Shown here one piece after another: positions 16,636-37,547 of a stretch of DNA of 64,000 nucleotides (its first letter is position 1; each line of letters starts with the position of its first letter). Origin of the DNA: Isurus oxyrinchus (taxonomy: Eukaryota). The DNA lies in NCBI GenBank assembly GCA_026770705.1, contig JANJGN010000009.1, positions 163,928,001 through 163,992,000 of the forward strand, written 5' to 3'. The notes beneath the pieces were generated by a model. The model was not told the origin of the DNA. It saw only the letters and a list, made by a program, of their open reading frames with translations, and searched no databases. The position numbers were made by a program, and so were the translations under genes.

Positions 16636-16672
16636 ATGTGGATTTTGATTCTCCTCATTAGTTCTCTGCCCG
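16636..16672 (+). CDS. Gene A exon 1, signal peptide MWILILLISSLP
   Basis: ATG followed by a hydrophobic leader, then G|gtgagt (consensus donor, phase 1); identical in copy B. Confidence 0.9.
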
Positions 16673-19600
16673 GTGAGTGACAGCCAGACCTGGATATTCC
16701 AATAATCTGAGTTGGTTTAACTCTCGTGCGCTGGTTATACAGCAGATGTTTAAATATTTGGAGACATGCAAAGGCACAAAAGAGGTCTTGGGCACAGTGG
16801 GTTGTGTCTCTGTATCTGAGCCAGAAGCTCTGTGTTTGAGTCCCACTTCAGTTCTTGTTGAGAATGGAAGGCGCGTTCTAACCAGGCCCAACAGGTTGAT
16901 TATCAACCTGAAAATCTTCCAACAGACCGAAGGCTGGTGGGAAGAGGGTTTGAGATCCCAGTGCAACATGTTTGATGTGGAGTGGTGCCGCTCATTCTGT
17001 TGCCTCCGGAGGTTGTGACCTGTTTCAGGGAAAACAAGCTTTGGAAAGCAAAAGTAAACATGTGCTTTGTCTGCCGCATCCGTCTCTAGATGTGGGAAGT
17101 CTCCTAAGTCTAAAGGCACAAATTAGTCAGCAAAACCAAATGAATAATAATTGTGAAATATATTATTACCCTGTGAATTTACTATCACACCATGGGAATA
17201 GTTAACAAATAAACTGAACTGCATTATTAATTATGAATGATAAGTAAAGGAGAATTCAATTTTCAGAAATCTATGCAAGCAACATTTTGAAAATGAAAAC
17301 CTGTTTTAATTGGTAATTTTCAATATAATCTGATGTCCAGTATACACTGAAAACTGCAGCGGTAATAATCCCACAAATAAAACATGTCCCAAGTTGGCGA
17401 ATATTTCTGTTTTTTAAAGTACAGTTGATGAAATATTGTGTTATGAGGCTCTCTCAGTGACACTGTTCCTCACTGGTAGATGGTTGGTCTACATCACTCT
17501 TCTCATAAGTAGCCTTTTCTTGTTCATTCTTTAACTTTAAGAAACTTGATTTTCCTCATCACTCAGTATTGCCACCTCTCCATCATTTTCAATGAATCTA
17601 TTTTATAACACACAATGTTAAACTCCCAGCCCCATCTGCTCTAAGCCACTACTTTAACTTCCGCAAAATATTTTGTGCCTCTAGCTTATCAATTTTATGC
17701 AGAATACTTGATGTACTTATGGACAGGAAACTGAATCATGTTTCTGTCGGTTTGGCAATCTTCTTCTTTTCAATCCTTCCTCTTTCTGATCTGATCTCTT
17801 TCCCATTTGCTTTTCAACTGTAACTTTTCCTGTATCTTTTTCCTTTTCTTCACTTCTCTCTAGCCATTTAATTATTTTCAATCTCTCTTTTGTTATTTTA
17901 GTGCAAACTCTTTCTCCACAGCATGAGTTTCTCTCCCAGCAAGGCCATTGGTCTCATGAACGTTCAAGTCAAGGCATCCAAATCCCTACCTCAGGAATCC
18001 ATCCATCCTTCAAGGCCACCTATCACACAACCTCTCAAACCTTCAAGGCCTTCAAATCCTACCTATGGACATCCCTAACTCATTCAAGATCTGAACACCC
18101 CCTCCTGCAAGGACCCAAGCATCCCCCGCACCCCACCCACCTCAGATCAGAGCAGGGAACTGTCGGCTCCTGTGACCCCCTCCACACTGCTCCCCAACCA
18201 ACTGCAAATCAGGCCTGTCAATCAGACTGGTTTCTGGAACCTCTTGATGATGTCATACGCAGTCTGGGGTTAAACCCTACAGTATGGGGCAGAACCTCAA
18301 TTTCCAGGTTCCCCACACTCTACCAACCCCTGCCAATAAGTCAAGAAAATGCCCCAAATATCTCCCAAATAAATCATTGTCTGAGACGCGCTTTGGAACA
18401 CAGTGAGGCTCTGATAAGTGTCTATATGAATGATTACTCTCATCACAAACTTGATGGAATTTAACTCATTAAAATGCATCTGTTTGAATTAAGCAGTTAT
18501 TTCCAGTTCAGTTTCTCAAATGTTGTCTCCTCAGTTTCAGGTGCATTGTGGGCAAAAAAAGAAGTAACAGGAGTTGTGGGAAGAGCGATCACAATAGAAT
18601 GTCACTATGATGCACGTTACAAGTCACATATAAAATATTGGTGTTGCGGCTGGAGTCGCCAGTGTAATATTTTAGTATTGAAAAATCAGCAAAATGGAAG
18701 AATATCGATCACAGATAACAAGGCAACAGGAATATTTATTGTTACTATGGTGGATCTTCACTCAAGAGATACAGGATGGTACAGCTGTGGTATTGACAAA
18801 CCTGGCCTCCTCGATTCAATGTTTGCTGTGTGGCTACAAATATCTTACGGTACATTTCTTACTGATTTTCTTTATTATTCTCAACTGAAATGTCTGCTCA
18901 ATGTTTTATCTGAGAGGAAACATGACAGCTCCGATATCCCGAGGCTCCACAGCAATGCAGAGACTTAAAGGTAAAGGGCAGAGGTCGGGAAATCCAACTC
19001 ATGTTACCCAAACCCAATTCATGGCCTGTCAAACATGTCAGAGTTGAACTTTACAAGTGAACTAAACGGAAATTGAGAAGTTGTTTTGATGGTAAAAGAA
19101 GCCTCTTTATTAATTGTTGAGACATTGGGCTGGATATTCAGCCTCAAAGCGGGTAGGGGCAATTCGGAAAATTCCCCGCTCGGCCTTGGAAGAAAGTGCC
19201 CACAAAGGTGGGATTTCCATTGCTGGGAGCTGTGCCCAGGCTGCAGTCTGGCCAGCCACACCAGGAAGAAATGCAGAGGCAGCCACAGGGACTGCCGGCT
19301 GCGGAGACGGGCTGTTTCAAAGGCCCCTCCTTAATGCCCTTGGACTTTGTAACAGCTAAACTCAAAACACAAAGGCCCTTCACCCCTCACCCCCCACAGC
19401 CCACAAAGAGGGTGGGTATAAGGGGAAAATTTGTCATGAGAGTTCTTGGAGGTGGGTGGAAGTGTACAGCTTGAAGTCAGGAGCATGATGGATTATAAGG
19501 CGTGGGTAAAGGGACATAGGGGGCATTAACGGCCAAACGTGATGGATGAGGATGTGACTTGACATAGGGGGCATGAGATGGACCTTTTGAACTTAGCTCT

Positions 19601-22600
19601 TAAAAGGTCCCCTCATGCAAACCAGTGTTTACAGCTCCTCTGAGGGGCTTTGGACTACGACTCATTCAAAACCTGGCCCGAGTCCATGAAAATTGCAGAG
19701 GAGTAGGACGTGTCTGTCTCCACAATGGAGGCAGCCAGGTTGGAGTGTAAAAAACAAAAATACAAACAAAAAACTGCGGATGCTGGAAATCCAAAACAAA
19801 AAGTAAGAAATACCTGGAAAATCTCAGCAGGTCTGGCAGCATCGGCGGAGAAGAGCACAGTTGATGTTTCGAGTCCTGATGACCCTTCAACAGAACTAAG
19901 TGAAAAGAAGAGAGGGGTGAAATATAAGCTTGTCTAAGGGGTGGGGGTGGGGGTGCGGGTGGATAGAGAAGTGGGGAGGTGGTTGTTGGGACAAGCAAGC
20001 AGTGATAGGAGGAGATAACCAAAAGATGTCACAGACAAAAGAACAAAGAGGTGTTGAAGGTGGTGATATTATCTAAAAGAATGTGCTAATTAAGAACGTA
20101 TAGCAAGACAAGCAAGGTACAGATAGGTCATGTGGGGGTGGGGTGAAATAAGACTAAAAGGGCATAAAATGTATAGATAAATGATCAGTGGAATACATTA
20201 AAAATATTGCAAATAGGTGGGAAAAGAAAAATCTATATAAATTATTGGAAAAAAGAAAAAGGATGGGGAAGAAATGGAAAGGGGGTGGGAATGGAGGAGG
20301 GAGTTCAAGATCTAAAATTGTTGATCTCAATATTCAGTCCAGAAGGCTGTAAAGTGCCTAGTCGGAAGATGAGGTGTTGTTCCTCCAGTTTGCGTTGAGC
20401 TTCACTGGAACATTGCAGCAGGCCAAGGAACAGACATGTGGGCAAGAGAGCAGGGTGGAGTGTTGAAATGGCAAGCGACAGGGAGGTTTGGGTCATTCTT
20501 GCGGACAGACCGCAGGTGTTCTGCAAAACAATCACCCAGTCTGCGTTTGGTCTTTCCAATGTAGAGGAAACTGCATTGGGAGCAACGAATGCAGTAGACT
20601 AAGTTGGGGGAAATGCAAGCGAAATGCTGCTTCACTTGAAAGGAATGTTTGGGCCCTTGGACGGTGAGGAGAGAGGAATTGAAGGGGCAGGTGTTGCATC
20701 TTTTGCGTGGGCATGGGGAGTTGCCATAGGTGGGGGTTGAGGAGTAGAGGGTGATGGAGGAGTGGACCAGAGTGTCCCAGAGGGAACGATCCCTATGGAA
20801 TGCCACCGGGGTGGTGAAGGGAAGATGTGTTTGGTGGTGGCTTCATGCTGGAGTTGGCGGAAATGGTGGAGGATGATCCTTTGAATGCGGAGGCTGGTGG
20901 GGTGATAAGTGAGGACAAGGGGGACCTTATCATGTTTCTGGGAGGGAGGAGAAGGCGTGAGGGTGGATGCGCGGTAGATGGGCCGGACACGGTTGAGAGC
21001 CCTGTCAACGACCGTGGGTGGAAAACCTCAGTTAAGGAAGAAGGAGGACATGTCAGAGGAACTGTTTTTGAAGGTAGCATCATTGGAACAGATGCGACGA
21101 AGGCGAAGGAACTGAGAGAATGGGATGGAGTCCTTACAGGAAGCGGGGTGTGAGGAGCTGTAGTCGAGGTAGCTGTGGGAGTCGGTGGGTTTGTAATGGA
21201 TATTGGTGGACAGTCTATCACCAGAGATTGAGACACAGAGGTCAAGGAAGGGAAGGGAAGTGTCAGAGATGGACCATTTGAAAATGATGGAGGGGTGGAG
21301 ATTGGAAGCAAAATTAATAAATTTTTCCAGGTCCAAACGAGAGCATGAAGCAGCACCGAAGTAATCATCAATGTACCAGAGAAAGAGTTGTGGGAGTGGG
21401 CCGGAATAGGACTGGAACAAGGAATGTTCCACATACCCCATAAAGGGACAGGGGCTCATGTGGGTACCCTTAGTCACACCTTTTATTTGGAGGAAGTGAG
21501 AGGAGTTAAAGGAGAAATTGTTCAGTGTGAGAACAAGTTCAGCCAGACGGAGGAGAGTAGTGGTGGATGGGGATTGTTCGGGCCTCTGTTCGAGGAAAAA
21601 GCTAAGGGCCCTCAGACCATCCTGGTGGGGGATGGAGGTGTAGAGGGATTGGATGTCCATGGTGAAGAGGAAACAGTTGGGGGCAGGGAACTGGAAATTG
21701 TTGATGTGACGTAAGGTGTCAGAGGAATCACGGATGTAGGTGGGAAGGGACTGGACAAGGGCAGAGAAAAAGGATTCAAGATAACGAGAAATGAGTTCCG
21801 TGGGGCAGGAACAGGCTGACACGATCAGTCTGCCGGGACAGTTCTGTTTGTGGATTTTGGGTAGGAGGTAGAAGCGGGCCGTCCGAGGTTGGGCGACTAT
21901 CAGGTTGGAAGCTGTGGGAGGAAGATCCCCAGAGGGGATGAGGTCAGTGACAGTCCTGGAAACAATGGCTTGATGTTCAGTGATGGGGTCATGGTCCATG
22001 GAGAGGTCGGAGGAAGTGTCTGCGAATTGACGCTCAGCCTCTGTGAGGTAGAGGCCAGTGCGCCAGACAACAACAGCACCACCCTTGACAGCGGGTTTGA
22101 TGACAATGTTGGGGTTGGATCTGAGGGAACGGAGTGCAGTAAGTCACAAAACAACTGTTTGCTGAAATGCTAAACAAAGATAAATATTGAGATAAAAGCA
22201 AAGAACTGCGGATGCTGGAAATGCAAACCAAAGACAGAAATAGAAATATCTGGAAAAACTCAGCAGGTCTGGCAGCATCGGTGGAGAAGAGCACAGTTGA
22301 TGTTTCGAGTCCTCATGACCCTTCAACAGAACTAAGTAACAATAGGAAAGGGGTGAAATATAAGCTGGTTTAAGAGGAAGGTGGGTGCGTTGTTGGGACA
22401 AGAAGCCAGTAATAGGTGGAGATAACCAAAAGATGTCACAGACAAAAGAACAAAGAGGTGTTGAAGGTGGTGATATTTTCTAAAGGAATGTGCTAATTAA
22501 GGGTAGAAAGCAGGACAAACAAGGTACAGATAGACCTAGTGGGGGTGGGGTGGGGTGAAGGAATACTAAAAATTCTAAAAATTAGAGATTAACAGTGGAT

Positions 22601-25600
22601 GGAAATACATTTAAAAATAATGGAAATAGGCGGGAAAAGAAAACTCTATATAAACTATTGGAAAAAAACAAAAAGTGGAGGAAGAAACGGAAAGGGGATG
22701 GAGATGGCGGTTGGGGCCAGGGAACTGGAAATTGTTGATGTGACGTAAGGTGTCAGAGGAATCACGGATGTAGGTGGGAAGGGACTGGACAAGGGGAGAG
22801 CGAAGGGAGTCAAGATAATGAGAATTGAGTTCCGTGGGGCAGGAAGAGGCTGACACGATCAGTCTGCCGGGACAGTCCTGTTTGTGGATTTTGGGTAGGA
22901 GGTAGAAGCGGGCCGTCCGAGGTTGGGAGACTATCAGGTTGGAAGCTGTGGGAGGAAGATCTCCAGAGGAGATGAGGTCAGTGACAGATCTGGAAGCAAT
23001 GGCTTGATGTTCAGTGGTGGGGTCATGGTCCAGGGAGAGGTAGGAGGAAGTGTCTGCGAGTTGACGCTCAGCCTCCACAAGGTAGAGGTCAGTGCGCCAG
23101 ACAACAACTGCACCACCCTTGTCAGCGGGTTTGATGGCAATGTTGGGGTTAGGCCTGAGAGAATGGAGTGCAGTATGTTCAGAGAGAGACAGGTTAGAAT
23201 GGGTGAGAGGAGCAGAGAAATTGAGACGACTAATGTCACGCCGACAGTTCTCAATGAAAAGATCAAGAGAAGGTAAGAATCCAGAGGGAGGGGTCCAGGT
23301 GGAGGGAGAATATTGGAGGTGGGTAAAAGGATCCGTTGAATGGGGAGAGGACTCCTGCCCAAAGAAGTGAGCCCGGAGACGAAGACGGTGGAAGAAGAGT
23401 TCAGCATCATGCCGAGCCCGAAATTCATTGAGGTGAGGACGTAAGGGTATGAAACTAAGTCCTTTGCTGAGCACTGAACGTTCAGCATCAGAGAGGGGAA
23501 GGTCAGGGTGTATAGTGAATACCCGACCGGGGCTGGGATTGGAAGATGGGGTGGGGACAGAGGGACAGGCAGGGTTGGAGGGTCCTGGATGTGTGTTGGT
23601 ATCACTGAGTTGTTGCAGCTTGCGTTCCTTAGCACTTGAGAGAAAGAGAAAAGGTTTCTTGTTGAGGCGACGGATGAGACGAAGAATAGAATGAAACTGG
23701 GGGCACGGGCAGCTTTGGAAAGGGGTACGGCGATGCTGCTGGAGGGAGAGGTCGAATGTGTTCATATGGCAGCGCATGGCACTGAGTGTGGATCTCAGAA
23801 TGCAACGGGAACAGTATTCCGAGGAATGTTGTATGTCCCAGAGATACCTGTAATCCTGGGTTGGTTCGAATCCGATGGAATTTCAGTTGAGATCCACATG
23901 GGGTAAGTCGGAGACGGAGACAGTCACTGAGAAAGGAAATATGGCTGTGAAAGCGGGTTTTAGTAAACACCTTGTCAAACACCAGGAGAGAAATGGAAAG
24001 CAATGAAGGTAAATAAGGCAAAAGAGAGATATGAAAATCCTGACGGAGAGTAGTACAAAACTTCTTTAAGGTAGGGATGTCTTGAAGAGAAGTGGCAGTC
24101 AATTAAACACGGATAAAAGCAAAAAACTGCGGATGCTGGAAATTCAAAACAAAAACAGAAACATAAATAGCTGGAAAAACTCAGCAGGTCTGGCAGCATC
24201 AGCGGAAAGAGCACAGTTGATGTTTCGAGTCCTCATGACCCATCAACAGAACTAAGTAAAAATAGGAGAGGGGTGAAATATAAGCTGGTCTAAGGGGTGG
24301 GGGTGGGTGGTGGTGGAGGGAGAAGTTGTTGGGACAAGCAAGCAGTGATAGGAGGAGATAACCAAAAGATGTCACAGACAAATGAACAAAGAGGTGTTGA
24401 AGGTGGTGATATTATCCAAAAGATTGTGCTAATTAAGGATGGGTAGCAGGACAAGCAAGGTATATGGTGGCATCATGCTGCAGTTGGAGGCGGAAATGGC
24501 GGAGAATGATCCTTTAGTGCGGAGGCTGGTGGAGTGATAAGTGAGGACAAGGGAGACCTCTTCATGTTTCTGGGAGACTTGCTGCCTTCTTCCAGTGAAG
24601 CTCAATGCAAACCGGAGGAACAGCACGTCATCTTCCGACTAGGCACTTTAGAGCCATTGGGACTGAATATTAAGTTCAACAATTTTAGATCATAAACTCC
24701 CTCCTCCATCCCCACCCCCTTTCTGTTTCTTCTCCCTCCTTTTTCCTTTTTCCAATACTTTATATAGATTTTTCTTTTCCCACCTATTTCCATTATTTTT
24801 AATGTATTGCACCGATCATTTATCTATACCTTTTAAGCCCTTTAAGTCTTATTTCACCCCACCCCCACTAGAGCTATCTGTACCTTGATTGTCCTGCTAT
24901 CCATTCTTAATTAGCACATTCTTTTAGATGATGTCACCACATTCAACACCTCTTTGTTCTTTTGTCTGTGACATCTTTGGGTTATCGCCTCCTATCACTG
25001 CTTGCTTGTCCCAACAACTACCGCCGACTTCTCTCTCCACCGCCCCCCCCGCCCCCCGACCCATTAGACCAGCTTATATTTCACCCCTTTCCTATTTTTA
25101 CTTCGTTCTGTTGAAGGGTCATAAGGACTCTAAATGTCAACTGTGCTCTTCTCTGCCGATGCTGCCAGACCTGCTGAGTTTTTCCAGGTTGGGGAGTTCT
25201 GGGTGTGGCTTTTGAATGATCCAGCCTGTATCCTTTAAAGCTGCTCCCAAAATCACACAACCCAGGAACGCAGTTGGGAATCCCAGAATTAGGACACACC
25301 CGCCATTTTTAAAGGGCTCCTGAATCAACCCAAGTTGGTGAAATCCAGGCCGTCACTTTGGTCTGAAGGCTGCACAAAGCACAGGGTAGAGGTCCTGGAC
25401 TGAGACACCTGCCTTTATCTTGTACAGAAAGTGTTCACATGTGAGTGACATGAACATTGCTCATCAAAACAAGGAGCGATAGGCAGGGAGACATTCTTTG
25501 GAGTTTATTGACAATAATGAACAGTATGTACAAGTGATTAACACCCGTGCCCAGGACGTGCAACTGGCCTAAATAGCCAAGTGGTTATGGTACTGGGTTT

Positions 25601-28600
25601 GTAACCCCAAGATCAGGAATTCAAATCTCACAATGGCAAAATATGAAACAATGTAACTTGATCTGAATAGGAACAGATGGAAATGTGTTTGTACTCAAAA
25701 GAGTTACATTTCCTCAACTCTCGAGGCCTTCCGTGCTCAGTGGGGACTGGGGTGCTTTATTGACCCCTTTTAGCACTTTTTGGTTTAAAGTTGTAAGTTT
25801 CCTTTAAACTTCGTTCTTGGTTTTACAGCTGACCTAAATTAGGGGCTGTCCCTTATTTATCCTAATTTTGTAAATTTAGTTTAATTGTTTTGACTCTATA
25901 AGAGTTACATCTCCTCAACCCCCGTAATATGAGCCGCCTCGGGGACATGTTCTCTGTGCCATTTGGCACAGCAAAGAGGAGCTTTTTGTACGGACTGCTG
26001 CTGCACATCTTCCATTTTCTCGCCCTTCTCCGCCGCCTGGATATGCCCTGGCATGCCTTGTTGCCTTCCGGCAGCGGAGGCCCCCGATGGGAGGCCCTCT
26101 GAGGAGGTGTCCTCCCCCTTTCTATCGGGGACCTGGGTTCGAGGGTGTTGCATGCAGCAGTCCCCTATAATAGGAGAATTCATAGGTTCACGGACTCCCA
26201 AGACACATGCCCTTTTCGTGGTCTTGTGGAGTCCGTGGACCATGCATACATAGGGTGTGGTAGGTTGCACTCCCTTTTCAGTTACTTGATGAACCTTTTG
26301 TTAATGTTTTGTTTGCACTTCAGCCCCACGCTCCTGATCTATGGACACCCGGTGCGGAAGGGGGTCGGAAAGGAGGAGGACCTCCTCGTGAACCTGCTCC
26401 TGGGCCTGGCCAAGTTGGCCATTAACAGGTCCAGGCAGCAGGCGATCGAAGGGGGAGTCCCGCCCAATTATTTATCCCTCTTCCGCGGCTACGGTCGCAG
26501 CCGGATGTCCCTGGAAAGGGAGCATGCGGTGTCTGCCGGCACTCTCGAACCCTTCCGTGCTCGGTGGGCACCGCGGGGACTGGGGTGTTTTGTTGACCTC
26601 TTTTATCACATTTTGGTTTAAAGTTGTAAGTTTCCTTCAAACTTTGTTCTTGGTTTTACAGCTGACCTGAATTAGGGGCTGTGCCTGATTTATCCCAATT
26701 TTGTTAATTTAGTTTAATTGCTTTGACTCTATAAGAGTTACATCTCCTCAACTCTCGAGACCTTCTGTGCTCGATGGGTGACCACGGGGGTTGGGGTGCT
26801 TTATCCAGCCTCTTAATCACATTTTGGTTTGATGTTGTAAGTTTCCTTTAAATCCTGTCTTTGGTTTTGCAGTGACCCTAACTTAGGGGCTGCGTTTTAT
26901 TTTGTTCCTCATTTTGTTAATTTAGTTTATTTGTTTGGCTTTAAAAGAGCTACATCTTCTCAACTTTCCTAATCCTCCCGCTACATCTTGGTGCTCCGCA
27001 GACATCCAGAGTGGAAGTAAAGACAGTCTGCTGACTGCTATGCTCTGTCTGTGATAACTTTGGCGGGCGTCCTCTGGAGGCCTGAGGCCTGGAGGGCCCC
27101 GGCTTCCTTTCGAGGTCCTGCTGTGTGGCATTACCACCCTCCTTGGCCTGTGGACCTGGAGCTGTCAAGGTCACAGTAAGAGGGGAGTTACCAGGATGAA
27201 TGGCCCCGGAGGGTACACATGTTGATCCTTCTCGCTATTGGCTGAATTAGCGAGCAGCAGGGGTAGCTGAAGTGAGATTGAGCTGCCCGCACCCCTCTCT
27301 CATACACACTGTCAGGGGCCAACTATACATCAGCAATGGAGTTCAGCCCCACAGCAGTGTAGGAACGGTGCCCTGGACCAACATCTCCAAGGCACCTACG
27401 ATCCTACCAGTGTTGACCTTGGTGCATTGACATGCCAGCGCTATCACCTCAGAGTGCAGGTGGATGGATTCCTCCATATTAACTGAAAATTTTATTTAAA
27501 AAGAGAGAAGGTCACCATCTAATCCTTTATTAACTGTGTTTAATTGTATGCAGTGGTAGCATTAAACAGATGTCTTCAGGTCTGGGCCTTGTACACACTG
27601 TCTCCTGGGAGTTCTGACCAGCTACCCTGCTGTCTTCAGGGAGATCTGGCCAACCATCCTGCTGTGTTCTGGGAGATCTAAGCAGCTACCCCCTCACATA
27701 GGCTTCAGTATTCCCTTAAATGTGTTTCTTCTCTTTCATCTCTCTTTGTTGCAACCAGTCTGAAAAGAAATGCTTTTCTTCAAAGGATTGATTAAATCAA
27801 TCTTTACCTCTTAGACTTGTAAAAACAAACTTACTCTATGTTTATGTCACGTCCTTACACCTTTTTACAACCTGCATATATCTCCCTTTGAACTAAAACA
27901 ACACAATTCAAACTATTTCTGTTATTGCTTCATGTACAAGTCTGTTGTAGTTCTTTTTTGTTTATTAACATATCAAAACCACTTCAAATTGTTGACTTTT
28001 GACCCTATCCACTGATGAGGCAGTCCATGTCATGGAACCATAACCTTAAATCTGGAGATAGGCTCGTCAGGGATGTCAGGAATCACTTCTTCACGCAAAG
28101 TATAGCGGAAATCAGGAACACTCTCCTCAAAAAAGCTCTTGAACTTAAATGAAAATTTCAAAACTGATTGACAGATTTTATCTGGTAGCAATATTCGGGT
28201 TATGGGACCCCGGTAGGTAAATGGACAGAAGATACTGGTCAGTTGGGATTTAATTGAATTGTGGAACAGGCTGAAGGGGCTGCATGTCCGAATCCCTTTT
28301 CCATGTTCTGGAGCCCCAGTTAATTTTTCAGTGGTCTGGGCCTTGTGAGTAACAATGTGCTGTGAAACAAGCTCACAAACAGTTAGCATTTCAAAGAGAC
28401 ACTTTCCAATCACCAGGCAAACTGTGACCTGTGTTGTTTCAGAGTACAGTTTGTGACAGTGAAAGCAGTGAAGGCCTGCCAAACCTCATTAAAATCAAGT
28501 TCTGTCGAAGGGTCATGAGGACTCGAAACGTCAACTCTTTTCTTCTCCATCGATGCTGCCAGACCTGCTGAGTTTTTCCAGGTAATTCTGTTTTTGTTTT

Positions 28601-31600
28601 GGATTTCCAGCATCCGCAGTTTTCTTTGTTTTTATCTCATTAAAATGTTGGTGAAATTGTCACTTTTCTCTGGCTAATCCCTTGACCAAAGAGGGAATTT
28701 TAATTCCCCTCCCCCATCCTGCATCGTGTTGAGGCATGATGGGATTTGCTGGATCCAGAACCTTCTCCAGCACGGCTTGTGATCCAGGAGACACACGAAA
28801 GCTTCACCCCCACCCCCAGGCAAATGTTTTATACAATTTCTCCCTCCCCATGATTGGCCAATCCTGCCCCAAGCAGCAAAGTCACCCTGACTCCCTCCTC
28901 GCTGTTGTGCTCCGAGGCAACATTCCCACCAATTTCCAAACTTTTACCATAACGTTCCTACTTGGAAACCAGCCAAACATTCAATCAGTGTGCAAGAATT
29001 CTGGTGAGATTTTGCTGTTAAATTCGGCACAAACTCAACATTCCTGGTATTTCCAGCTTTCTCACCACCCCACGCACAGTCCCCCCTCTCGTCTCCACGT
29101 ACCAGGGTTGAAGTGTTCTATCGCAGCATGCAGAGAACCAGAGCCAATCACATTTACATTCTTATCCAAAGCTACAAAACATGTAACCGATATCTGACAA
29201 CATTTTGCCCTCATTTTACCCTTTGCTTTTCTAAGATTCTCTCCAACCAATTCACATTCAACTCACAAACAATGAAACAGCATTGGAGGCTCACTACCAG
29301 CTACGAAGAGATATTGTTCACCATGATATTCATGTTAACATACTCTCAGTATCATAGCTGCTGTTCTGATCTGGAGACCTGATATGTTCTGATATAATGG
29401 CTGAAAGGGTAACTCAGGCCTCTAAGAGGATGGAGAGATATGGGGATGGATTTTTAAAAAGTATGGTGTCAGGATTAGAGATGGGTGGGTGTGAAATTTG
29501 ACACCGCTGGTCTCCATGCCAATTTACTGTTACAATCCCAAGCCCGAAACATTTAGAAAGCAGGCGGCTTGCAGTCAAGTGGTGGGCAGCTAACTTAGGA
29601 AATAACATTTACCAAAGGGGCCAATTAAAGACCCATTCCTGCGCCCACTGGGATTTCATTCAGCAATGCAAGCAGACCACATTACCCCTTCAGGATCATG
29701 GCCCGGCAGCTGCCGGGTTTTGAAACATAAAATAAACTTACCTGGACTTTCCCCTTGCTGTCTCCATGCTCAGGTCAGCAACTCCCACCTCACCTGGTGA
29801 GGCCCTCTAGCATCAGGAGCCCGCCCACTGTCCCTGATTGGATGGTGAGCCAGTTCCAGTCTTTTGATTGGCAAGAACATTGAAAATTGCAGTGGGCATG
29901 CCTAAAGAATGGTGAATGGTGTCAGGACCTGAAACTATCTCCCATGTCCAGTTCCCAAACCCAAATTTAACATCCACCCCATAGAGTGGTAGATGTGTTG
30001 GTGAGATTCCAACATGGCAGAGCCTGGCTGAGATGAAGTGCAAAGTTTGAAGAGTATTTGATTATTAAATGTTCAGTATCTGAATGTTTCTTTCTTTCCA
30101 ACAGAACCCGTGTCTGTTCCTGTGCTTAGATTTTCATCACCAGCAAATGTCTCATGTTCTGGGGGTTCAGTGTCCGTCTCCTGTGAGTCTGTCCAGGGAT
30201 CCCTTCCCATTCAGTACACATGGTATGAAAAGAACCTGTCTGAAGATTCAAAGATCTCTGACACCAATAAACTGGATCTACATTGTCAATCCTTCAAACA
30301 GCAACATCATCAATATTACTGCACAGCCTCAAATAATCAGGGAGTAAAATCCAGTGACACTGTCACTGTTAACTCAACACTCATGAATGTAACAACGAAA
30401 AGCTACAGTTATGTGATACAAATTGGAAACATTGGTAAGTGTTACTTTCTACAAACAACGTGGCGAATGAATGTTTAAAATTCATGTCTATCCAAACTGG
30501 TCACTGTTTCAGTTCCTTCAGTTTATCTGAGAAATTGCAGCTGGCCAAATTCACTCTCTCTGGTTCCTCAAACATTCTGAACAAGGTCACTAAGTTGCAT
30601 TTTTCATGAAAAATGGACAGGATCAGAAAATATCCCCAAAACATGCAAAAATATTGCAGAATCTCCAATAAACCCATCGAATCAAAATAGCATTTGATTG
30701 ACAGAGCTTTCATAAAGCAATTTGTCTATTTCCAGCAGATGGAATTGTGAAATGCAACCTCCAACTGTTGTGTCCTAGTTTGGGAAGGATATCACTGATA
30801 GAATAGAGAAGAATTGAATTAAAATGAACCCTTGGACGAGAGGTTTTAGTCATGAGGAAAGTATCATCACAACTGAGGTGAATGACCAGCTGGAGGACGT
30901 GGAAATTGTTAGAAATTTGGATAAGATAACTCTAACTATTTCCACTAGTCAGTGAGTCAGCAACAAGAGAGCATTAACTTTAAAATTATCACTAAAAGGA
31001 CAAAGGGAGAAATTTGGAGAATTTTATTGATGCAAACTGTTTTTAGGACATGGAATGCCCAACTGAAAGAAGTTTACAAACAAATTTAATAATAGATTTT
31101 AAAAGGGAAACAAATGTATGAGGGTGTGGGAAAAGGACAATGAAATGGAATTAAATGAGGAGATCATTCAGAGAACCAGCATTGGAGCGATGGGCTGAAT
31201 TCCCTCCCCTGTGTTGTAAAAATTCCATCATTCCAGACAAAATCTCAACTTATCCTGTCTAAAAAATTAACTATTCCCTCCCCATAAAACAATGACCCTG
31301 GTTCTGACATAAGGAGGACTTTAGCCTATTTGAATGTAGCGGTTCAATTTTCTGCAGAGTGGGTGCAGCATGTTCACCGAGAAACACCAACATGGGCACA
31401 AAACAAAGAGAATCACATTTTCACCTGAGCAGCAGGAGACAGGAATTTACATATGCAAATATATTGACTCTGGTCATGTGGTCTCTTGCCTCAGTTGTCA
31501 GGGAAGAAGGGTGGAATTTTACACCCCCATTGCGCCAGGGACTGGGCTGTAAAATGCAGCCAGCCATTCTAAACTCCATGCACTCCAGCAGGACCATAAA

Positions 31601-34600
31601 ATCCCACTGTCACAAGGCTCTGAGCAAAGGCTGTCAGCAGCAGGTAGAAATTACACCTGTAAACTGTGTTTGTACTGGAGTTGTCAGCAGGGACTCAGTT
31701 GCACTCTGACCTTTGATGCCAGTCTTTTGTAGTTACAAGTTCCCCTTAAGAGTTAAAATTCGGGCTGATACCATGATCCAGCACTGAGGTAGTGCTATAC
31801 TGGTGGTGGTGCTGCTGTGTAGATGAGGTGTTAAACTGAGGATCCACATCCCCGTTAGGTAGATGTAAACATTTCCAGGGTATTATTCACAGAATAGGGA
31901 AGTTCTCCTGGTGTCCTTGAAGCCTTTATTCCTCAACCAATACACACAAATAGGGAGCAGGAGCAGGGTATTTGGTCTTTTGAGCCTGTTAATGTCACTA
32001 CAAAACAGATCATCTAGTGAATGTTTTACTGATGTTTGTGGGCCTTTGCTGTGTACGAATTAACTTTCACGTTTCTTGATATTAAAACTGTGGCTTTACT
32101 TCAAAAAAGTACTTCATAGGCTCTGAAGCACTTTGGGATATCCCAAGGTTGTGAAAGGTGATGAATCAACACACATTGTTTCTTACTTTTTGAAACAAAT
32201 GATTTATTAAAATACATCTGAACCAATTATCTGAGTGCAAACGGCAGGGGGGAGGGGGAGGGAGGAGCCAGTCCCAGCAGCAAGGTGGGTCATTATAATT
32301 AAATGGACAGAAAATCACTGGCAGGTTTGAGACATTCATGGTCTGTTGGTGAAGATTCTCATCTTTACTGCAAGCTCAGAAAACTGCCCCCAAAGGGCAG
32401 AAAGTGACCATTGCCAGTATTAGGATGTGACTGTTTAATGTGTTCACATGAAATTCATGTAATGAAAGTGTATCTCTGGATTGTAGTCCACCAACCTGAG
32501 CCCTTAACTGGCCCACTAGTAACTCTGTCCCACCAACTCTCAGATATAGTAAAGAAAGTGGAATTACCAGTAAAGATAGATCACCACCAAGTATCTGCGA
32601 CCTCTCCACTTGTGACCAGAGAGGGGTAAATTACACAGAAATCAATTCTACCAGCCAGGCTTTTCCTCAATTAATGAGGTTCCATTTGACAATGATGCTC
32701 TTTCAGTTGACTACAAGTGAAAATGAGCTGAATCTGAGTGTTATTCTTTTGCTTCCACAGGACCTGAGTATTTTTGTGATGTTTCTACAACAGTATCACC
32801 AACTACACATTTGACAAGTACAGATATAATTTCCACTACCATTCGATCCACACCTTCAGATCCCGAAAATGCTGAAAGGTACAATGTTCTCATGGATTGG
32901 CACTGCTTCCATATGTGAGAGATACGATTGGCCAAAGGAGTGAAAGTTGTTCATTAATTTGGAAAGTAGCTCATCAGAATGGAAATGGTGGCTGGGTTTA
33001 TATCATGCTGTTGTGTTAGCTTCTTAATGAGGGTGCATTTTTCTGTTGGAAAATACAAGCAAGGAGTGAGCTTTTCCATTGTGTTGCTGCTCAGATGGTG
33101 TTTTTTGCCTTATTCACCTTGATTACTTCACCGCTAAGGTAATCTCACAGTGTGTGAGGAGTTGTACTTGTCAAACTTACCTTGCTGCTGTCTACACTGA
33201 CAGAGTAGCTGTATTTGGGCTGATGAAAAGGAAGAATTAGCGTGATATATCTGCACATCCTTTGGTTTCACTAATGAGAGACATCTTGCAGCTCTCGGCC
33301 CGTTTCCATATTATAAACCTAAGCTGTTGACAATAAGTAGCAGAAATTGTAGTCCGATGTAAACACTCAGGAATCGGGTCTTTGAAGTTACAATGGTGAT
33401 AAAGAGAAAACGCCAACTAAATGTCAAACAGAAAGAGGGACAGTTGGAAATGGACAGCAGGTATGTCCGCAGCTGTGGAGAAAATAAACACGTTCATGGT
33501 TTGGGTGCAGACACTTCTTCAGAATTCTAGTCCACACACGAAGTGAAACAGGTCCACTCACCCCACAGATCCCAACTGAGCTGCTGAATGTTTCCAGAAT
33601 ATTCTGTTTTCCATTCATATTTCTAGCACATGCAGTGCACTTACTTTTATCCAGATTATTGTCAATGATTTAAGAAGTATAGAAAGTATCTGATTTTTAT
33701 TTTAAGACAAATCTCTATGTCTGCTCTGTTGTATAAAGTTGACAACAAAGATCATCTGAATATGAAATCCATATATGTATGAAACAGTTATTACTTCCAC
33801 TTTTTTCAGGGAACATCAGGTATTCTTGCATTTGGATTTTAATAATTAAAACTGACTCAGTATTAAACAAGGCTCAGTGGTAACACACTCACCTTACATG
33901 TCAAAGGCTGTGGGTTCACTTCCACTCCAGAGACCTCAGCACATTATCTTGGCTGACACTCCAGTGCACTACTGAGGGAGTGCTGTGCTGTTGGAGGTGC
34001 CACCTCTCAGATGTGATACACCCAAGGCCCATCTGCTCTCTCAGGTGGGTGTAACAGATCCCATAGTGACATTCATAGAAGAGCAGGGCAGTTCTCCCTC
34101 GAGACCTGGGCAACATCACTAAAAAAAACAAATTATTTGTTCATCCAACTAATTGCTATTTGTGGGAGCATGCTGTGTGCAAATTGAGTGCCACATTTGC
34201 CAAATTACCACAGTTACACTGCATTAAAAATATTCATTGCTTGTAAAGTGCTTTGGGATGTCCTGAGGTCATGAAAGCCACTTTATAAATATCTACCTTT
34301 AAATATTTCTTTAAACAAATGGCCAATAATCAATTGTGAACCAACACTGTCCCTTGTCTATTCTCTGTTTCACAGTCTGATTTACATTGTGCTCGGAGTG
34401 CTGGGGGGCATTCTTGTGGTGTTTGCTGTTTCTCTACTTCTGTACCTGAGGCAAATCAACAAGGGTGAGTTTTTATTTCTCTTTAATCATTTTATTATAT
34501 GGCAATAATTTGCTGCAGAAGGAAAGAATATACAGTTTGTTGGATCAATCAACAATCACCCATGACCCTAGTATTCTCATTCTGGTCTACACATATTGAA

Positions 34601-37547
34601 CATGGGGCTGAATTTTTCTCTATTCGAGCGGGCGCACACCAGATCCAAACGAGAGTAAAATAGTGCGCGATGAGGTCAGACGAGCGTCTGGACATTATCG
34701 TACACTCTGGCGATATTTCTCTCTGCAGGCACGTGCGAGAGGCGGCAGCACGCCCGCTGACAATGAAGCAACATATTAAGGCCCTTAATCAATTAATAGA
34801 ATTGAATTTTTTGCTGCCGGTCCAACTGTTCAGTTGGTTTGTGGTCAAATCGGCCAATCAGCCTTTGCACTTTTGGCGAAACCTCATCAATGGGCGGGAT
34901 GGGGTTTTGACCAGTGATTAAAGCAAAAACTTTGAGAACTCGTATTTAAATGGCCATGGTCATTTGCAAAGTCACATGAGGGGACATGTTTTCATTAGTT
35001 TTCAATTCTTTATTTCAATTGTTCAAAATCTTCAGCTCCCTGAGGCAGCTCTGAGACTCAGGGAGCTTTCACTGTCAGCACGCGCACACATGCACAAACT
35101 TGCACGCTTGCCCTCCTCCCACCCTCACGCCAGCAGTGCTGAGCGTTGCAGCGCGTATTATGCACTGACTGTCCATTAATCTTCCAGCCCGTATGAAATC
35201 GATGTTGGGGCCTGATTCGGGGCAGTGGTCGGCTTCACAACCACTCCTGAGCCCACCTGCCATGCCCATCCGACAAGGGCAAAATTCTGCCCATGGAATA
35301 ATTAAGTTGAGTATTGCTGATAAAAAATACATTTGAACAGATGAACAAGGAGCAGGAGTAGGCCATTCAGCCCCTCGAGCCTGCGCCGTTATTCAATAAG
35401 GTCATGACTGATCTGATGGTAACCTGAAATCTGCATCCCAGCTACCCCCCACATAACCTATCACCCCCTTGTTTACCAAGAATCTATTCACCTTCCCCTT
35501 AAAAATATTCAAAGACTCTGCTTCCCCCACCTTTTCAGGAAGAGACTTCCAAAGACTCATGACCCTTGGCGTGAAAAAATTTTGCCTCATCTCCATTTTA
35601 AATGAGGGCGACCCCTTATTTTTAAATAATGACCCCTAGCTCTAGATTCTTCCACAAGAGGAAACATTCTCTCCACATCCAGCCCATCAAGACCCCTCAG
35701 GATTTTATTCTGTTGAAGCAATCAGCACTCTCTTCTCATGCAGTATAAATTGTTGCTCCCTTTATTGTTGGTATTGTTGCAAACTGTCCTGATGAGAACA
35801 AGGCAAAAAGCTTTGACAGTGCGTCTCTTTGAATGAGAAAAATTGGGCCTCTGATTTCTCCCTGTGATGAATTGCTTGACCTTACATCAATGACACAACA
35901 TAACAGGTACTTGTATTCAGGATAGAATTGATCAGTTTTTGAAATGCTCAATCCTAAACACACGGGAGTTAATTTTCTCTTTCACATCACGGGTGTTAAT
36001 CTGTCAGAGTGCTAAATAGAAATTAATGGAATGAAATTTGGGTGCGTTCTCTAATAGACAATCTGTTCTGTCAGACAGAAAACGTCATATGCTGGTAGTG
36101 TAGTTGCTGGTTTCTGGTGTGTGTGGCCTATCTTAACGAGAGAAACTAGTGTTACTCTGTGACTTGCTTTAAACTGCTTTATTAACACTGTATTTAAGAG
36201 AGGTTACAGAGTAGGTATGCCTCCCCTGAGTAGAGTGTTCCATCCTCTCTCCCAGGTAAATAGCACATGACTGCCAATTTCATTGATACATCATGGTGTA
36301 CATCACTCATCAGCATAGCTATTCTATTAACCCATTACACTACAAACCCTTTTGTCATGCTATGTATAATAACCAGGCTGATTGTTCAATCCATGTTGGA
36401 AATCATTGGTGCAATGCAGATGAACACATTTCCATGAATGTGGATCAATGTCAGGTTTAGCACACTTGCAACTCATGTTTAGTTTAGAGATTTTAAACAT
36501 ATTAACCATTCCTTGTTACAGTTCTTTCAACAGTTACATTGTAATTTTTCAGGTACAAACTGCATTCCAAGTCAGCGGAGAGACAAGACTCTCCATTATA
36601 ATCAGGTAAGGATATAAACATTACTTCTCTGAATACTGTTTGGAAATTTGCAAGCTGGTGGATATAGAATTTACTAAGAACTTACAGCCATTCGGCCCAT
36701 CTGCACGAGGCTGGTTTTTATGCTCCACATGAACCTCCTCTCACCCCTCTTCATCCCACCCTATCAGCATATCCTTCTGTCCTTTACTCTCTCATGTGCT
36801 TATCTAGCTTTCCTTTAAATGCAGCAATCCTATTGGACTCAACTCCTCCCCAGGGAAGGAATAAGGAATTCAGAAGAAACTTCTTTACCCAGAGAGTGTC
36901 AGAATCTGAAATTCGTTACTTTAAGTCAAAGTTCAGGCAAAAACCATGAATAAAGCTGGATAAAGCTGGATAAGCAGTTGAGGGAGAAGGTAATAGAAAG
37001 ATATTTTGAAGAGGTTGGATGAAGAGGGGTGGGAGGAGGCTTGTGAGGAGAATGATACTGGTATAGACCCATTGGGCTGAATTGTTTGTTCCTGTGCTGT
37101 AAATAATTTTTAATATCTTGTAATCCTTTATAAACTGATTTATAATAATGGATATATAGCTTTCTCCTCATAACAGCACAAGTCACCATTCAGGCTAATC
37201 AAAAATAAATGCAATCATTTTTTTAATATATTTAGGAATTGGCAGCAGAGGAAGAGGGCACTGTGTATGCAAATGTAAACCACACTCAAAGGAGCTCGGC
37301 AGGAACACACAGAGAGGGAACTGCCGAGTTGAATAATGAGGAAATCACATATGCAGCAGTGCAATTACAAAAGAAATCGTCTACACAGAGAGGTGAAGGG
37401 ACAAGTCACTCAGTTAACAACCCGGACAGTGTCATCTACAGTGGAGTCATGATTCACAACCAGCCCACAAAGAAAAACCCTAAAACTCCATTACATGATA
37501 CTCCCCAGGAATCTGAAATGGCAATTTATGCTACCGTTACTCATTAG
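16636..37547 (+). CDS. Gene A: inhibitory CD300/pIgR-like (MDIR-like) Ig-superfamily receptor, 417 aa; join(16636-16672,18535-18849,30105-30434,32761-32878,34376-34464,36553-36605,37236-37547)
   Basis: All six introns are GT..AG with compatible phases (1,1,1,2,1,0). Exon lengths 37+315+330+118+89+53+312=1254 nt give an open frame ending in TAG. Domain order is SP-V-C2-stalk-TM-ITIM tail. One-to-one orthology is not established, so no symbol is given. Confidence 0.9.
18535..18849 (+). CDS. Gene A exon 2, V-set Ig domain of CD300/pIgR/TREM type
   Basis: tctcctcag acceptor; VSGALWAKKEVTGVVGRAITIECHY..KYWCCGWSRQC..GRISITDNK..DTGWYSCGI; KYWC..C second-disulfide signature; G|gtacat donor. Confidence 0.93.
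19127..19745 (+). mobile_element. Harbinger-type MITE, left part (right part 25190-25350), split by the Penelope element
   Basis: gggctggatattca ... tgaaatccaggcc inverted termini. Confidence 0.55.
19748..25188 (-). mobile_element. Penelope-like retroelement (RT + GIY-YIG) with tandem pLTRs and an inverted terminal segment, in intron 2 of gene A
   Basis: SVLSKGLSF, IKPADKGGAVVVW, LPKIHK, WYIDD, LPFLD (RT; 21028..21999 and 22611..23777); NLVYCIRCSQC...YIGKTKRRL..EH (GIY-YIG, 20402..20806); pLTR copies at about 19750-20300, 22190-22700 and 24108-24460, plus-strand inverted copy at about 24590-25188. Confidence 0.93.
24215..24253 (-). ncRNA. Hammerhead-like motif in the pLTR upstream of the Penelope ORF (further copies about 19859-19897 -, 22295-22333 -, 38898-38936 +)
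   Basis: Minus strand AGTT CTGTTGA T GGGTC ATGAG GACTC GAAA CATC AACT. Confidence 0.5.
25566..25704 (+). mobile_element. tRNA-derived SINE (tRNA-Thr TGT-like head) with a Tx1-like 3' end
   Basis: TAGCCAAGTGG (A box), TTTGTAA anticodon loop, GAATTCAAATC (B-box-like); tail ends aaaagagt at the shared target; absent in copy B. Confidence 0.6.
25719..26950 (+). mobile_element. Three tandem 5'-truncated Tx1-clade non-LTR retrotransposons (25719-25905, 25920-26738, 26753-26950)
   Basis: ORF 26145..26621 (CPF.G..ESV.H....C.RL..LHFSPTLLIYG.PV..EDLLVNLLLGLAKLAINRSR) resembles the Tx1 ORF2 C-terminus; T-rich 3' UTRs end aagag(t/c); units separated by tacatYTYctcaac. Confidence 0.85.
28040..28310 (+). 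mobile_element. CR1 3' fragment
   Basis: CR1 3'-end sequence (aggaatcacttcttcacgcaaag..gctgaaggggctg). Confidence 0.6.
28496..28635 (+). mobile_element. 140-bp solo Penelope terminus with 11-bp TSD
   Basis: ctcattaaaat at 28485-28495 and 28636-28646. Confidence 0.85.
28498..28536 (+). ncRNA. Minimal type-I hammerhead ribozyme-like motif (variant core CUGUCGA)
   Basis: AGTT-CTGTCGA-A-GGGTC(ATGAG)GACTC-GAAAC-GTC-AACT: helix I, helix II, GAAA, palindromic ACGT in place of helix III, GUC triplet. Confidence 0.6.
30105..30434 (+). CDS. Gene A exon 3, C2-type Ig domain (FCRL/PECAM-like motif)
   Basis: tttctttccaacag acceptor; EPVSVPVL..VSVSCESVQGSLPIQYTWY..YYCTASNNQG; G|gtaagt donor. Confidence 0.92.
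31690..32190 (+). mobile_element. DeuSINE/SacSINE1-like SINE (decayed)
   Basis: Deu-domain-like core cagcactgagg..gatgaggtgttaaactgagg..aggtagatgtaaa..acttcaaaaaagtacttcataggct. Confidence 0.65.
32761..32878 (+). CDS. Gene A exon 4, Ser/Thr/Pro-rich stalk
   Basis: ttttgcttccacag acceptor; GPEYFCDVSTTVSPTTHLTSTDIISTTIRSTPSDPENAE; AG|gtacaa phase-2 donor matches exon 5. Confidence 0.85.
33870..34290 (+). mobile_element. DeuSINE/SacSINE1-like SINE
   Basis: tRNA-like head ggctcagtggtaacac..gggttc, core actgagggagtgctg..ctctcaggtgg, L2-like tail. Confidence 0.75.
34376..34464 (+). CDS. Gene A exon 5, transmembrane helix
   Basis: tctgtttcacag acceptor; SLIYIVLGVLGGILVVFAVSLLLYLRQINK with no charged residue in the membrane; G|gtgagt donor. 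Confidence 0.9.
34605..35292. mobile_element. Harbinger-type MITE in intron 5
   Basis: TIRs gggctgaatttt / aaaattctgccc with 3-bp TSD ATG. Confidence 0.8.
35335..35705 (-). mobile_element. CR1 3' fragment
   Basis: RQNFFTPRVMSLWKSLPEKVGEAESLNIFK. Confidence 0.85.
36553..36605 (+). CDS. Gene A exon 6, membrane-proximal cytoplasmic segment
   Basis: aatttttcag acceptor; GTNCIPSQRRDKTLHYNQ; CAG|gtaag donor; supplies the phase 1 to phase 0 bridge needed between exons 5 and 7. Confidence 0.82.
37236..37547 (+). CDS. Gene A exon 7, cytoplasmic tail with four tyrosine motifs and stop
   Basis: tatttag acceptor; motifs TVYANV, ITYAAV, VIYSGV, AIYATV; TAG ends at 37547. Confidence 0.9.
   Translation, partial: ELAAEEEGTVYANVNHTQRSSAGTHREGTAELNNEEITYAAVQLQKKSSTQRGEGTSHSVNNPDSVIYSGVMIHNQPTKKNPKTPLHDTPQESEMAIYATVTH

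What the first reader, a model, noticed from the sequence alone, without database searches (positions are those of the whole stretch)
16636..37547. Modular inhibitory receptor: CD300/pIgR-type V domain joined to an FCRL/PECAM-like C2 domain and a four-tyrosine tail
Seen: a complete 7-exon in-frame model. Established: mammalian CD300/TREM proteins have a single V domain and pIgR has tandem V domains. A CD300-type V domain combined with other Ig domain types recalls the modular domain immune-type receptors (MDIRs) described from skate. Both Ig exons are phase 1-1, so they are shuffle-compatible. Inference: a lineage-specific expanded receptor cluster of unknown ligand (immunoglobulin, lipid or pathogen) that may include activating partners with a charged TM outside the window.
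Basis: partly seen in the sequence, partly recalled or inferred. Interest (0 to 1): 0.7.

Follow-up and report, generated by a model that had tools for sequence, protein, structure and literature searches.

The report
Shark brake receptor with accelerator twins
This is an intact shark gene for a likely inhibitory immune-cell receptor of a family already described in skates (MDIR), one of about 30 tandem copies in which the same sensor end is attached to either a predicted "brake" or a predicted "accelerator" tail; it adds detail to a known kind of system rather than a new one.

Summary
The 7-exon, 417-aa model is real. It is a modular domain immune-type receptor (MDIR): the V domain is 62% identical to skate MDIR5, the C2 domain 73-76% to MDIR5/MDIR3, and MDIR3 residues 336-699 align with the whole protein, tail included. 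The V+C2+ITIM design is therefore in GenBank since 2006 and is shared across sharks and rays. The gene lies in a 1.15-Mb array with 15 inhibitory and 17 arginine-type transmembrane exons. The upstream neighbour has an identical V domain on an activating-type tail. Head/tail crossovers map to intron 3, and across elasmobranchs ectodomains group by lineage, not by signalling type. Likely mechanism: a CD300-type pocket binds a lipid head group or a microbial mimic; ITIM/ITSM motifs would recruit SHP-1/2; the twins would signal through FcRgamma. Ligand and adaptors are untested. Probable-RNA contigs confirm V-C2-stalk splicing only for an activating paralog. Flanks are GNAI3 and AHCYL1, not the CD300, PIGR or TREM neighbours. 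The scan noted this family before in other shark genomes. New member of a known kind; interest 0.35.

The parts
16636..16672 (+). Exon 1, signal peptide (phase 1)
   Evidence: ATG and GT donor; homologues start the same way
18535..18849 (+). Exon 2, CD300-type V domain ('type A' head: extra Cys50 in the C-C' loop)
   Evidence: 8 copies identical in protein in the cluster
20405..23882 (-). Decayed retroelement sequence (reverse transcriptase match at 21031-22143) in the 11.25-kb intron 2; the long intron marks type-A heads (others 5-6 kb, one 9.6 kb)
   Evidence: RVT_1 E 3e-5; intron lengths; alignment gap in type-B copies
30105..30434 (+). Exon 3, C2-set Ig domain, FCRL5-like; a near-invariant family Cys is Tyr218 here
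30459..32137 (.). Intron 3 zone where head/tail crossovers map in paralogs (30459-30477 for three activating copies with this head; 31310-31339 and 32067-32137 for inhibitory copies with the other head; positions projected on this gene)
   Evidence: informative-site painting
32761..32878 (+). Exon 4, Ser/Thr-rich stalk (phase 1-2)
   Evidence: GT..AG joint 30434/32761 in contigs of two studies, from an activating paralog
33501..33703 (.). End of DNA homology between inhibitory and activating copies (intron 4)
34376..34464 (+). Exon 5, uncharged transmembrane helix (about residues 268-291)
   Evidence: 15 copies
36553..36605 (+). Exon 6, juxtamembrane tail
37236..37547 (+). Exon 7, tail with ITSM/ITIM motifs at Y325, Y353, Y382, Y412, and stop
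   Evidence: 15 copies
3152..3187 (+). Predicted last coding exon of the upstream activating-type twin (its V domain is identical in protein; its Arg-containing TM exon lies 634-724 bases before the window, L128:7276-7366)
   Evidence: the acceptor is inferred from conservation among copies
58339..58375 (+). Signal-peptide exon of the next copy (inhibitory tail beyond the window)
60235..60549 (+). V exon of the next copy ('type B' head, 76% identical)

Best explanation
The gene is an intact MDIR (signal peptide, CD300-type V, FCRL-like C2, stalk, neutral TM, ITSM/ITIM tail) that likely works as the inhibitory half of a paired-receptor system on shark leukocytes. Its V domain likely binds a lipid head group or a microbial mimic in the CD300-type pocket between the C-C' and F-G loops; phosphorylated tail tyrosines would recruit SHP-1/SHP-2 and dampen activation. 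Neighbouring copies carry the same V (and nearly the same C2) on an arginine-containing TM with a short tail, and would trigger through FcRgamma or CD3zeta. Crossovers in intron 3 have repeatedly re-paired heads and tails, which keeps brake and accelerator matched. Shown: gene model, family, array, identical heads on both tail types, crossover positions, splicing of an activating paralog. Inferred: ligand, phosphatases, adaptor, cell type.
For: Family: V 62% to MDIR5; C2 73% and 76% to MDIR5 and MDIR3; MDIR3 336-699 covers residues 13-415 at 46%, E 1e-100, and the V falls in one clade with all five MDIR3/5 V domains and the chimaera V, 98/91. Pairing: 24 complete single-module ORFs among 30 pieces in the core, 12 ITIM-type and 12 Arg-TM type; this V is identical in 4 other inhibitory and 3 activating copies; the upstream activating gene differs at 78 of 13,799 bases from signal exon to C2. 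The head tree needs 5 type changes (at least 4 forced by strong branches), the stalk tree 2. Across 84 V+C2 modules the type label is no more clustered than shuffled (25 changes vs 27.8; 68 and 93 of 500 shuffles as low), while sharks and batoids split at 100. Pocket: the model of the white-shark homologue fits CD300lf at Z 18.9, rmsd 1.2 A over 103 residues, vs Z 16.1 for pIgR D1; the F-G loop aligns without gaps to the CD300lf Gly96/Asp98/Met100 loop that holds Ca2+ and phosphocholine (PMC6166816, passages); the Asp is kept in 17 of 18 distinct V sequences while surrounding loop residues vary. Arg near the TM N-terminus is the FcRgamma-coupling arrangement of CD89/NKp46 (PMC13107469, passages), and FcRgamma-like and CD3zeta-like TM exons exist in this genome. 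Contigs of probable RNA runs join V-C2 (one study) and C2-stalk-Arg TM (two studies).
Against: No binding or signalling data. The CD300lf pocket-floor Trp89 is never Trp here (Ser 40, Arg 17 of 60 parsed V domains), the C-C' loop is one residue shorter, and this head has a one-residue F-G insertion and an extra Cys50, so the lipid ligand is only about 45% likely. The spliced contigs are from a type-B activating paralog under a different organism label, not from this gene. Excess amino-acid change in V is not significant when each distinct change is counted once (ratio 1.24, p 0.5), although pairwise pN/pS is 1.86. Five collinear pairs of copies are only 0.06-0.22% apart, this gene among them, so part of the array may be two haplotypes assembled in tandem. 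The activating TM lacks the NxxR motif of tested FcRgamma partners (PMC2413239, passages) and also holds an Asp.
Confidence: 0.75

Rival explanations
1. It is an antibody (Fc) receptor for IgM, IgW or IgNAR, an inhibitory FcR/pIgR-like molecule: the V domain would bind as pIgR/FCMR D1 does, or the FCRL5-like C2 would bind Fc.
For: V is in the CD300/pIgR/FCMR superfamily; D2 best matches FCRL5; automatic annotations call many homologues 'pIgR-like' or 'FcR-like 5'.
Against: V is closer to CD300lf than to pIgR D1 or FCMR by profile (106.7 vs 68.1 vs 38.4 bits) and by fold. Dozens of heads varying in the binding loops fit a changing ligand better than a conserved Fc. D2 matches FCRL5's membrane-proximal repeat domains far better than its first two (37 vs 2 bits). 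A separate pIgR-like V exon lies 160 kb from IL10, 14.5 Mb away.
Confidence: 0.15
2. The ligand is a protein or glycan (a self marker copied by a pathogen, or a pathogen surface protein), and the activating twins arose as counter-decoys, as argued for Siglec-5/14 and CEACAM1/3.
For: Variation clusters in the B-C, C-C'/C'' and F-G loops; V has a higher share of amino-acid-changing differences than C2 (56/12 vs 48/25, p 0.035); the Trp89 equivalent is lost. CD300lf's pocket is itself used by a norovirus capsid (PMC6166816).
Against: The metal-binding Asp and most pocket positions are retained; selection on V is not significantly positive. It does not exclude the best explanation.
Confidence: 0.3
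3. This copy, or much of the array, is an assembly duplicate or a silent recent duplicate with no function of its own.
For: One copy about 420 kb away differs by 0.12%, and four more collinear pairs by 0.06-0.22%; several neighbours are broken.
Against: All other type-A copies differ by 0.55-1.1% and are distinct mosaics, too many states for two haplotypes; the frame and splice sites are intact; C2 is under purifying selection (ratio 0.57, p 0.012).
Confidence: 0.1

Closest known systems
Modular domain immune-type receptors of clearnose skate: MDIR3 (ABC86797.1) and MDIR5 (ABC86800.1); Cannon et al. 2006, PMID 16738934 (text not held, not read)
   Same: Same V+C2 module (V 62%, C2 73-76%), stalk, neutral TM and multi-Tyr tail as MDIR3; the activating twins have the same W-x3-R-W-x2-F TM as MDIR5.
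   Different: One V-C2 module instead of V-V-C2-V-C2 (MDIR3) or V-C2-V-C2 (MDIR5); a very recent array of about 30 copies with identical heads on opposite tail types.
Mammalian CD300 paired receptors (CD300LF; CD300A/CD300C)
   Same: V fold with extra C-C' disulfide and the Asp-bearing F-G loop; ITIM/ITSM tail; activating and inhibitory pair kept alike by sequence exchange (PMC12447643, abstract).
   Different: Extra C2 domain; pocket Trp replaced; Arg-type TM in the activating forms; different genomic neighbours.
FCRL / Xenopus XFL paired receptors
   Same: D2 resembles FCRL5 repeat domains; neutral-TM ITIM and Arg-TM forms, domain shuffling, species-specific birth and death (PMC2413239, passages).
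   Different: The N-terminal domain is a CD300-type V; the TM motif is WxxxRW, not NxxR.
pIgR / FCAMR / FCMR, and TREM / NKp44
   Same: Same V-domain superfamily; the same shark chromosome carries IL10, NFYA, a FOXP-MDFI-TFEB group and BYSL.
   Different: Lower similarity; not next to IL10; not between NFYA and FOXP4; ITIM tail and C2 domain.

Membership tests
MDIR | CD300/TREM/pIgR-type V domain closely related to skate MDIR V domains | tested here: met
   62% to MDIR5; one clade with MDIR3/5 V domains, 98/91
MDIR | Modular ectodomain mixing V with a C2-type domain | tested here: met
   C2 73% to MDIR5, 76% to MDIR3; same V-C2 order
MDIR | Inhibitory (Tyr-motif) and activating (charged TM) forms in a multigene family | tested here: met
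   15 inhibitory TM/tail and 17 Arg-TM exons
MDIR | Formal domain classes, expression and genomic organisation as given in Cannon et al. 2006 | not testable with these tools
   paper not held; definition taken from GenBank/UniRef entries and PMC3031540 passages
CD300 | V domain with second C-C' disulfide and Asp-bearing F-G loop | tested here: met
   Cys49/Cys56 (Cx6C in 59 of 60 parsed V domains), Asp106; Z 18.9 to CD300lf
CD300 | Single Ig domain ectodomain | tested here: not met
   V plus C2
CD300 | Locus linked to NHERF1 (human 17q25; gene order recalled) | tested here: not met
   both EBP50_C genes are on C22 and C15, the cluster on C9; only one marker tested
CD300 | Ca2+-dependent lipid binding | not testable with these tools
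   pocket partly conserved, Trp89 equivalent lost
pIgR/FCAMR/FCMR | Ectodomain of V domains only, adjacent to IL10 (recalled) | tested here: not met
   C2 present; IL10 14.4 Mb away, with its own V exon 160 kb off
pIgR/FCAMR/FCMR | Binding of polymeric immunoglobulin | not testable with these tools
   needs a binding assay
TREM/NCR2 | Cluster directly between NFYA and FOXP4 (PMC4855714, passages) | tested here: not met
   NFYA is 1.9 Mb away with two G-alpha genes between; the FOXP gene is 10 Mb away
FCRL | C2 domains of FCRL repeat type | tested here: met
   best PDB sequence match FCRL5 361-452, then FCRL4 among receptors; FCRL2 cluster third in the Atlas
FCRL | All-C2 ectodomain starting with FcR D1/D2-type domains | tested here: not met
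   N-terminal domain is V-set; FCRL5 D1/D2 score 2.2 and 0.5 bits
PECAM-1 | Specific similarity of D2 to PECAM-1 domains | tested here: inconclusive
   the fold searches give generic C2-set matches, best CD22 Z 9.2; only part of PECAM-1 is solved
Paired receptors | Near-identical ectodomains on opposite signalling modules, maintained by sequence exchange | tested here: met
   opposite signalling itself is inferred from motifs

The most novel reading that the evidence does not exclude
Sharks run a KIR-like, copy-number-variable paired-receptor array in which two ancient signalling cassettes (ITIM and Arg-TM, both older than the shark-ray split) are continually re-fitted with the newest sensor heads through an intron-3 crossover zone. 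This array and the older CD300-like genes beside it mark the ancestral chromosome segment from which the TREM, PIGR/FCMR and TMIGD3 loci also derive, making shark MDIRs a direct test of whether lipid sensing or antibody binding came first in this superfamily.
Probability: 0.3. Interest if true: 0.6.

Novelty: new member of a known kind. Interest (0 to 1): 0.35.

Why it matters
What this locus adds is a clean natural experiment: identical V domains on predicted brake and accelerator tails, with crossover points mapped, in the oldest jawed-vertebrate lineage. It shows that the head-swapping mode known from mammalian CD300, Siglec and KIR pairs also operates in cartilaginous fish, and it supplies matched pairs for finding the MDIR ligand, for which my searches found no paper. 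The placement between GNAI3 and AHCYL1, on the chromosome that also carries the TREM-region and PIGR-region neighbours, bears on the unresolved origin of CD300/TREM/pIgR.

Tried and rejected
An alternative 10-nt micro-exon at 33810-33819 breaks the frame: rejected. TREM-locus orthology looked attractive after NFYA and BYSL mapped either side but was rejected as direct adjacency once GNAI3 and AHCYL1 proved to be the flanks. Positive selection on V: pairwise pN/pS 1.86 fell to a non-significant 1.24 when changes were counted once; not claimed. Head type versus tail type association: 7/3 vs 5/12, p 0.057; not significant. Sequencing runs: no RNA holder listed; among the listed pieces of four probable-RNA runs none lay on exons 5-7, but the tables were cut and repeat-dominated, so this is no evidence on expression. 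Complex prediction of the activating TM with the FcRgamma-like TM gave no verdict (score 0.04, mark 0.34). Foldseek on D2 alone gave no match at E 0.001 or better, and PECAM-1 was not in the top 50 of the wide search. A C135-C233 disulfide covariation count was ambiguous. Cannon 2006 and Cannon 2010 were not held. Ten literature searches found no paper on the genomic organisation or ligand of shark MDIRs; subscription papers are not covered. No supplements were read.
Full report
Observation. Seven exons (16636-16672, 18535-18849, 30105-30434, 32761-32878, 34376-34464, 36553-36605, 37236-37547) have canonical AG/GT ends and give a 417-aa frame; both Ig exons are phase 1-1. The protein has a signal peptide, a V-set domain, a C2-type domain, a Ser/Thr-rich stalk, an uncharged TM and a tail with five tyrosines, four in ITSM/ITIM-type motifs. 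The only N stretch of the window (10666-10928) is outside the gene.

Identity. All 81 proteins found with the V exon, and all 120 listed of 144 found with the C2 exon, are from cartilaginous fish (only longer proteins were searched). They include skate MDIR5 (ABC86800.1; V 62%, C2 73%) and MDIR3 (ABC86797.1; C2 76%). MDIR3 is V-V-C2-V-C2-TM-ITIM tail, and its residues 336-699 align with residues 13-415 here (46%, E 1e-100); MDIR5 is V-C2-V-C2 with an Arg-containing TM. In a tree of 30 V domains this V groups with all five MDIR3/5 V domains and a chimaera V (98/91), apart from eight more distant V exons of this genome. Single-module inhibitory homologues exist in horn shark (417 aa, 67.5%), sevengill, catshark, bamboo shark and sawfish; the closest protein is from white shark (86% over 385 residues), which points to a lamniform shark. 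PMC3031540 (passages) describes MDIRs as multigenic activating/inhibitory receptors resembling CD300, TREM and pIgR. The original paper was not held.

Domains. D1's best single-domain match is CD300lf, by sequence, by profile (106.7 bits vs 68.1 for pIgR D1, 54.5 NKp44, 43.3 TREM2, 38.4 FCMR) and by fold: a model of the white-shark homologue (pLDDT 78.5) fits CD300lf at Z 18.9, rmsd 1.2 A, 103 residues. CD300lf binds phosphocholine and Ca2+ between its C-C' and CDR3 loops using Tyr34, Cys36-Cys44, Gln41, Arg42, Trp89, Lys94, Gly96, Asp98 and Met100 (PMC6166816, passages). The F-G loop of the second head type aligns without gaps to that loop; this gene has a one-residue insertion but keeps Lys101, Gly103, Asp106 and Met108. 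Tyr47, Cys49, Arg54 and Cys56 match by spacing only (my inference; the loop is one residue shorter). Of 84 V domains, 60 parsed: Tyr 58, Arg 41, Asp 40, Met 29, and none had the Trp89 equivalent. D2 best matches FCRL5's repeat domains by sequence; its fold matches are generic C2-set (best CD22, Z 9.2), so PECAM-likeness is unsupported.

Array. The window is G000:C9:163,928,001-163,992,000. Searches gave 40 V matches of 55 candidates (32 at 51% or more within 163.13-164.26 Mb, 8 identical), 34 C2 of 118, 15 ITIM tails of 66 and 15 neutral TM exons. I fetched 163.00-164.56 Mb. The copies without an ITIM tail carry a different TM exon with an N-terminal Arg (17 hits) and a short last exon. In the core (163.32-164.28 Mb) 30 pieces resolve into 12 complete inhibitory and 12 complete activating-type single-module ORFs, two activating-type genes with a duplicated C2, and four incomplete or broken pieces. 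The activating TM motif is ancient: 46 of 136 stored homologues, from sharks and rays, carry W-x2-3-R-W-x2-F.

Head and tail exchange. Ten copies share this 'type A' head (7 inhibitory, 3 activating); the other 17 heads also occur on both tails (5 and 12). The gene just upstream is activating-type, with an identical V protein and 78 differences in 13,799 bases from signal exon to C2. Painting informative sites puts the switch at 30459-30477 in all three such hybrids, which suggests one event later amplified, and at about 31.3 and 32.1 kb in the reciprocal hybrids. In 26 genes the head tree needs 5 type changes (at least 4 forced) and the stalk tree 2. For 75 of the 136 database proteins (those with a clear class and an adjacent V+C2) plus 9 local genes, ectodomains split sharks from batoids at 100 and form mixed-type clades within several genera, with no clustering by type (25 changes vs 27.8 shuffled) (quick tree; some automatic gene models may be fused). 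Variation lies in the B-C, C-C'/C'' and F-G loops; V has more amino-acid-changing differences than C2 (p 0.035), but its ratio of 1.24 is not significantly above 1. Caveat: five collinear pairs, including this gene, are 0.06-0.22% apart, so the copy number per haplotype may be lower.

Expression. No holder is on record as RNA. Contigs of runs guessed to be RNA join a type-B V exon to C2 (one study), C2 to stalk across GT..AG, and stalk to the Arg-TM exon (two studies).

Position. The nearest non-Ig genes found are a GNAI3-like gene with a second G-alpha gene at 163.00-163.06 Mb and an AHCYL1-like gene at 164.49-164.51 Mb (144 of 217 candidate ORFs scanned, the 73 from the IL10-linked region were not). 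In humans both lie at 1p13.3 (recalled). NFYA is at 161.2, BYSL at 167.8, a FOXP-MDFI-TFEB group at 152.8-153.4 and IL10 at 148.75 Mb with a lone pIgR-like V exon 160 kb away; NHERF genes are on other contigs. Tetrapod TREM genes lie between NFYA and FOXP4 (PMC4855714, passages); this cluster does not. It is thus no positional orthologue of CD300, PIGR or TREM, but shares a chromosome segment with the neighbours of the last two.

Mechanism. Established: ITIM/ITSM tails recruit SHP-1/2 (recalled); an Arg near the top of a TM couples to the Asp pair of FcRgamma or zeta (PMC13107469, passages); CD300A/C ectodomains are kept alike by gene conversion (PMC12447643, abstract). FcRgamma-like and CD3zeta-like TM exons are present in this genome. 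I therefore read the gene as the brake of a paired system (family 0.95, inhibitory signalling 0.85, lipid-type ligand about 0.45, FcRgamma for the twins about 0.65). Rivals are an Fc receptor (0.15), a protein or glycan ligand driven by pathogen mimicry (0.3, partly compatible) and a redundant or artefactual copy (0.1).

Papers seen: passages of PMC3031540, PMC4855714, PMC6166816, PMC13107469, PMC2413239, PMC4279169 and bioRxiv 10.1101/2022.04.21.489081; abstract and outline of PMC12447643; search listings only for the Siglec-5/14 and CEACAM papers; nothing of Cannon 2006 or 2010. Three earlier notes of this scan on other shark genomes reached the same family; they are not independent evidence.

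Verdict. Real, intact, and a new member of a known family. The mapped head/tail recombination and the locus position are useful additions that I did not find in the searchable literature, but they follow the usual pattern of paired receptors. Interest 0.35.

Noticed in passing
G000:C9:164.32-164.48 Mb (L162-L178): A second, older group of eight diverged CD300/pIgR-type V exons (one with a stop) with three neutral TM exons, one Arg-type TM exon, three ITIM-rich last exons and no C2 exon detected; it forms separate branches from the V-C2 MDIRs.
   Followed up: partly
L197:749-1099 (G000:C9:148.59 Mb): A lone V exon 160 kb from IL10 that lacks the first canonical Cys and scores about equally with pIgR D1 and CD300; a candidate positional counterpart of PIGR/FCAMR/FCMR in sharks.
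   Followed up: partly
window 18535-18849 and 30105-30434: All 10 type-A copies gain Cys50 in the V C-C' loop and 9 of 10 lose a near-invariant C2 cysteine (Tyr218), which may leave free cysteines for dimer formation or alter the pocket.
   Followed up: partly
G000:C9:163.695-163.716 and 164.121-164.143 Mb: Two activating-type genes carry a duplicated C2 exon with a truncated stalk between; skipping it gives an open V-C2-C2 frame of 418 aa, an example of module duplication.
   Followed up: partly
window 3152-3187 and L128:7276-7366: Skipping the 91-nt Arg-TM exon would give a secreted V-C2-stalk form; the white-shark model XP_041050570.1 ends in just this way.
   Followed up: partly
G000:C9:163.398-163.468 Mb: An inverted block of three copies on the minus strand, one lacking its head, next to an orphan activating last exon.
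   Followed up: no
window 8618-9739 and 50425-50907: A low-complexity repeat reading as acidic VTEEAEVEA-type units recurs between genes of the array; no Pfam match for 8618-9739.
   Followed up: no
window 18529-18540: Two AG acceptors six bases apart at the V exon, both in frame; one bamboo-shark model (P0129) appears to use the downstream one.
   Followed up: no
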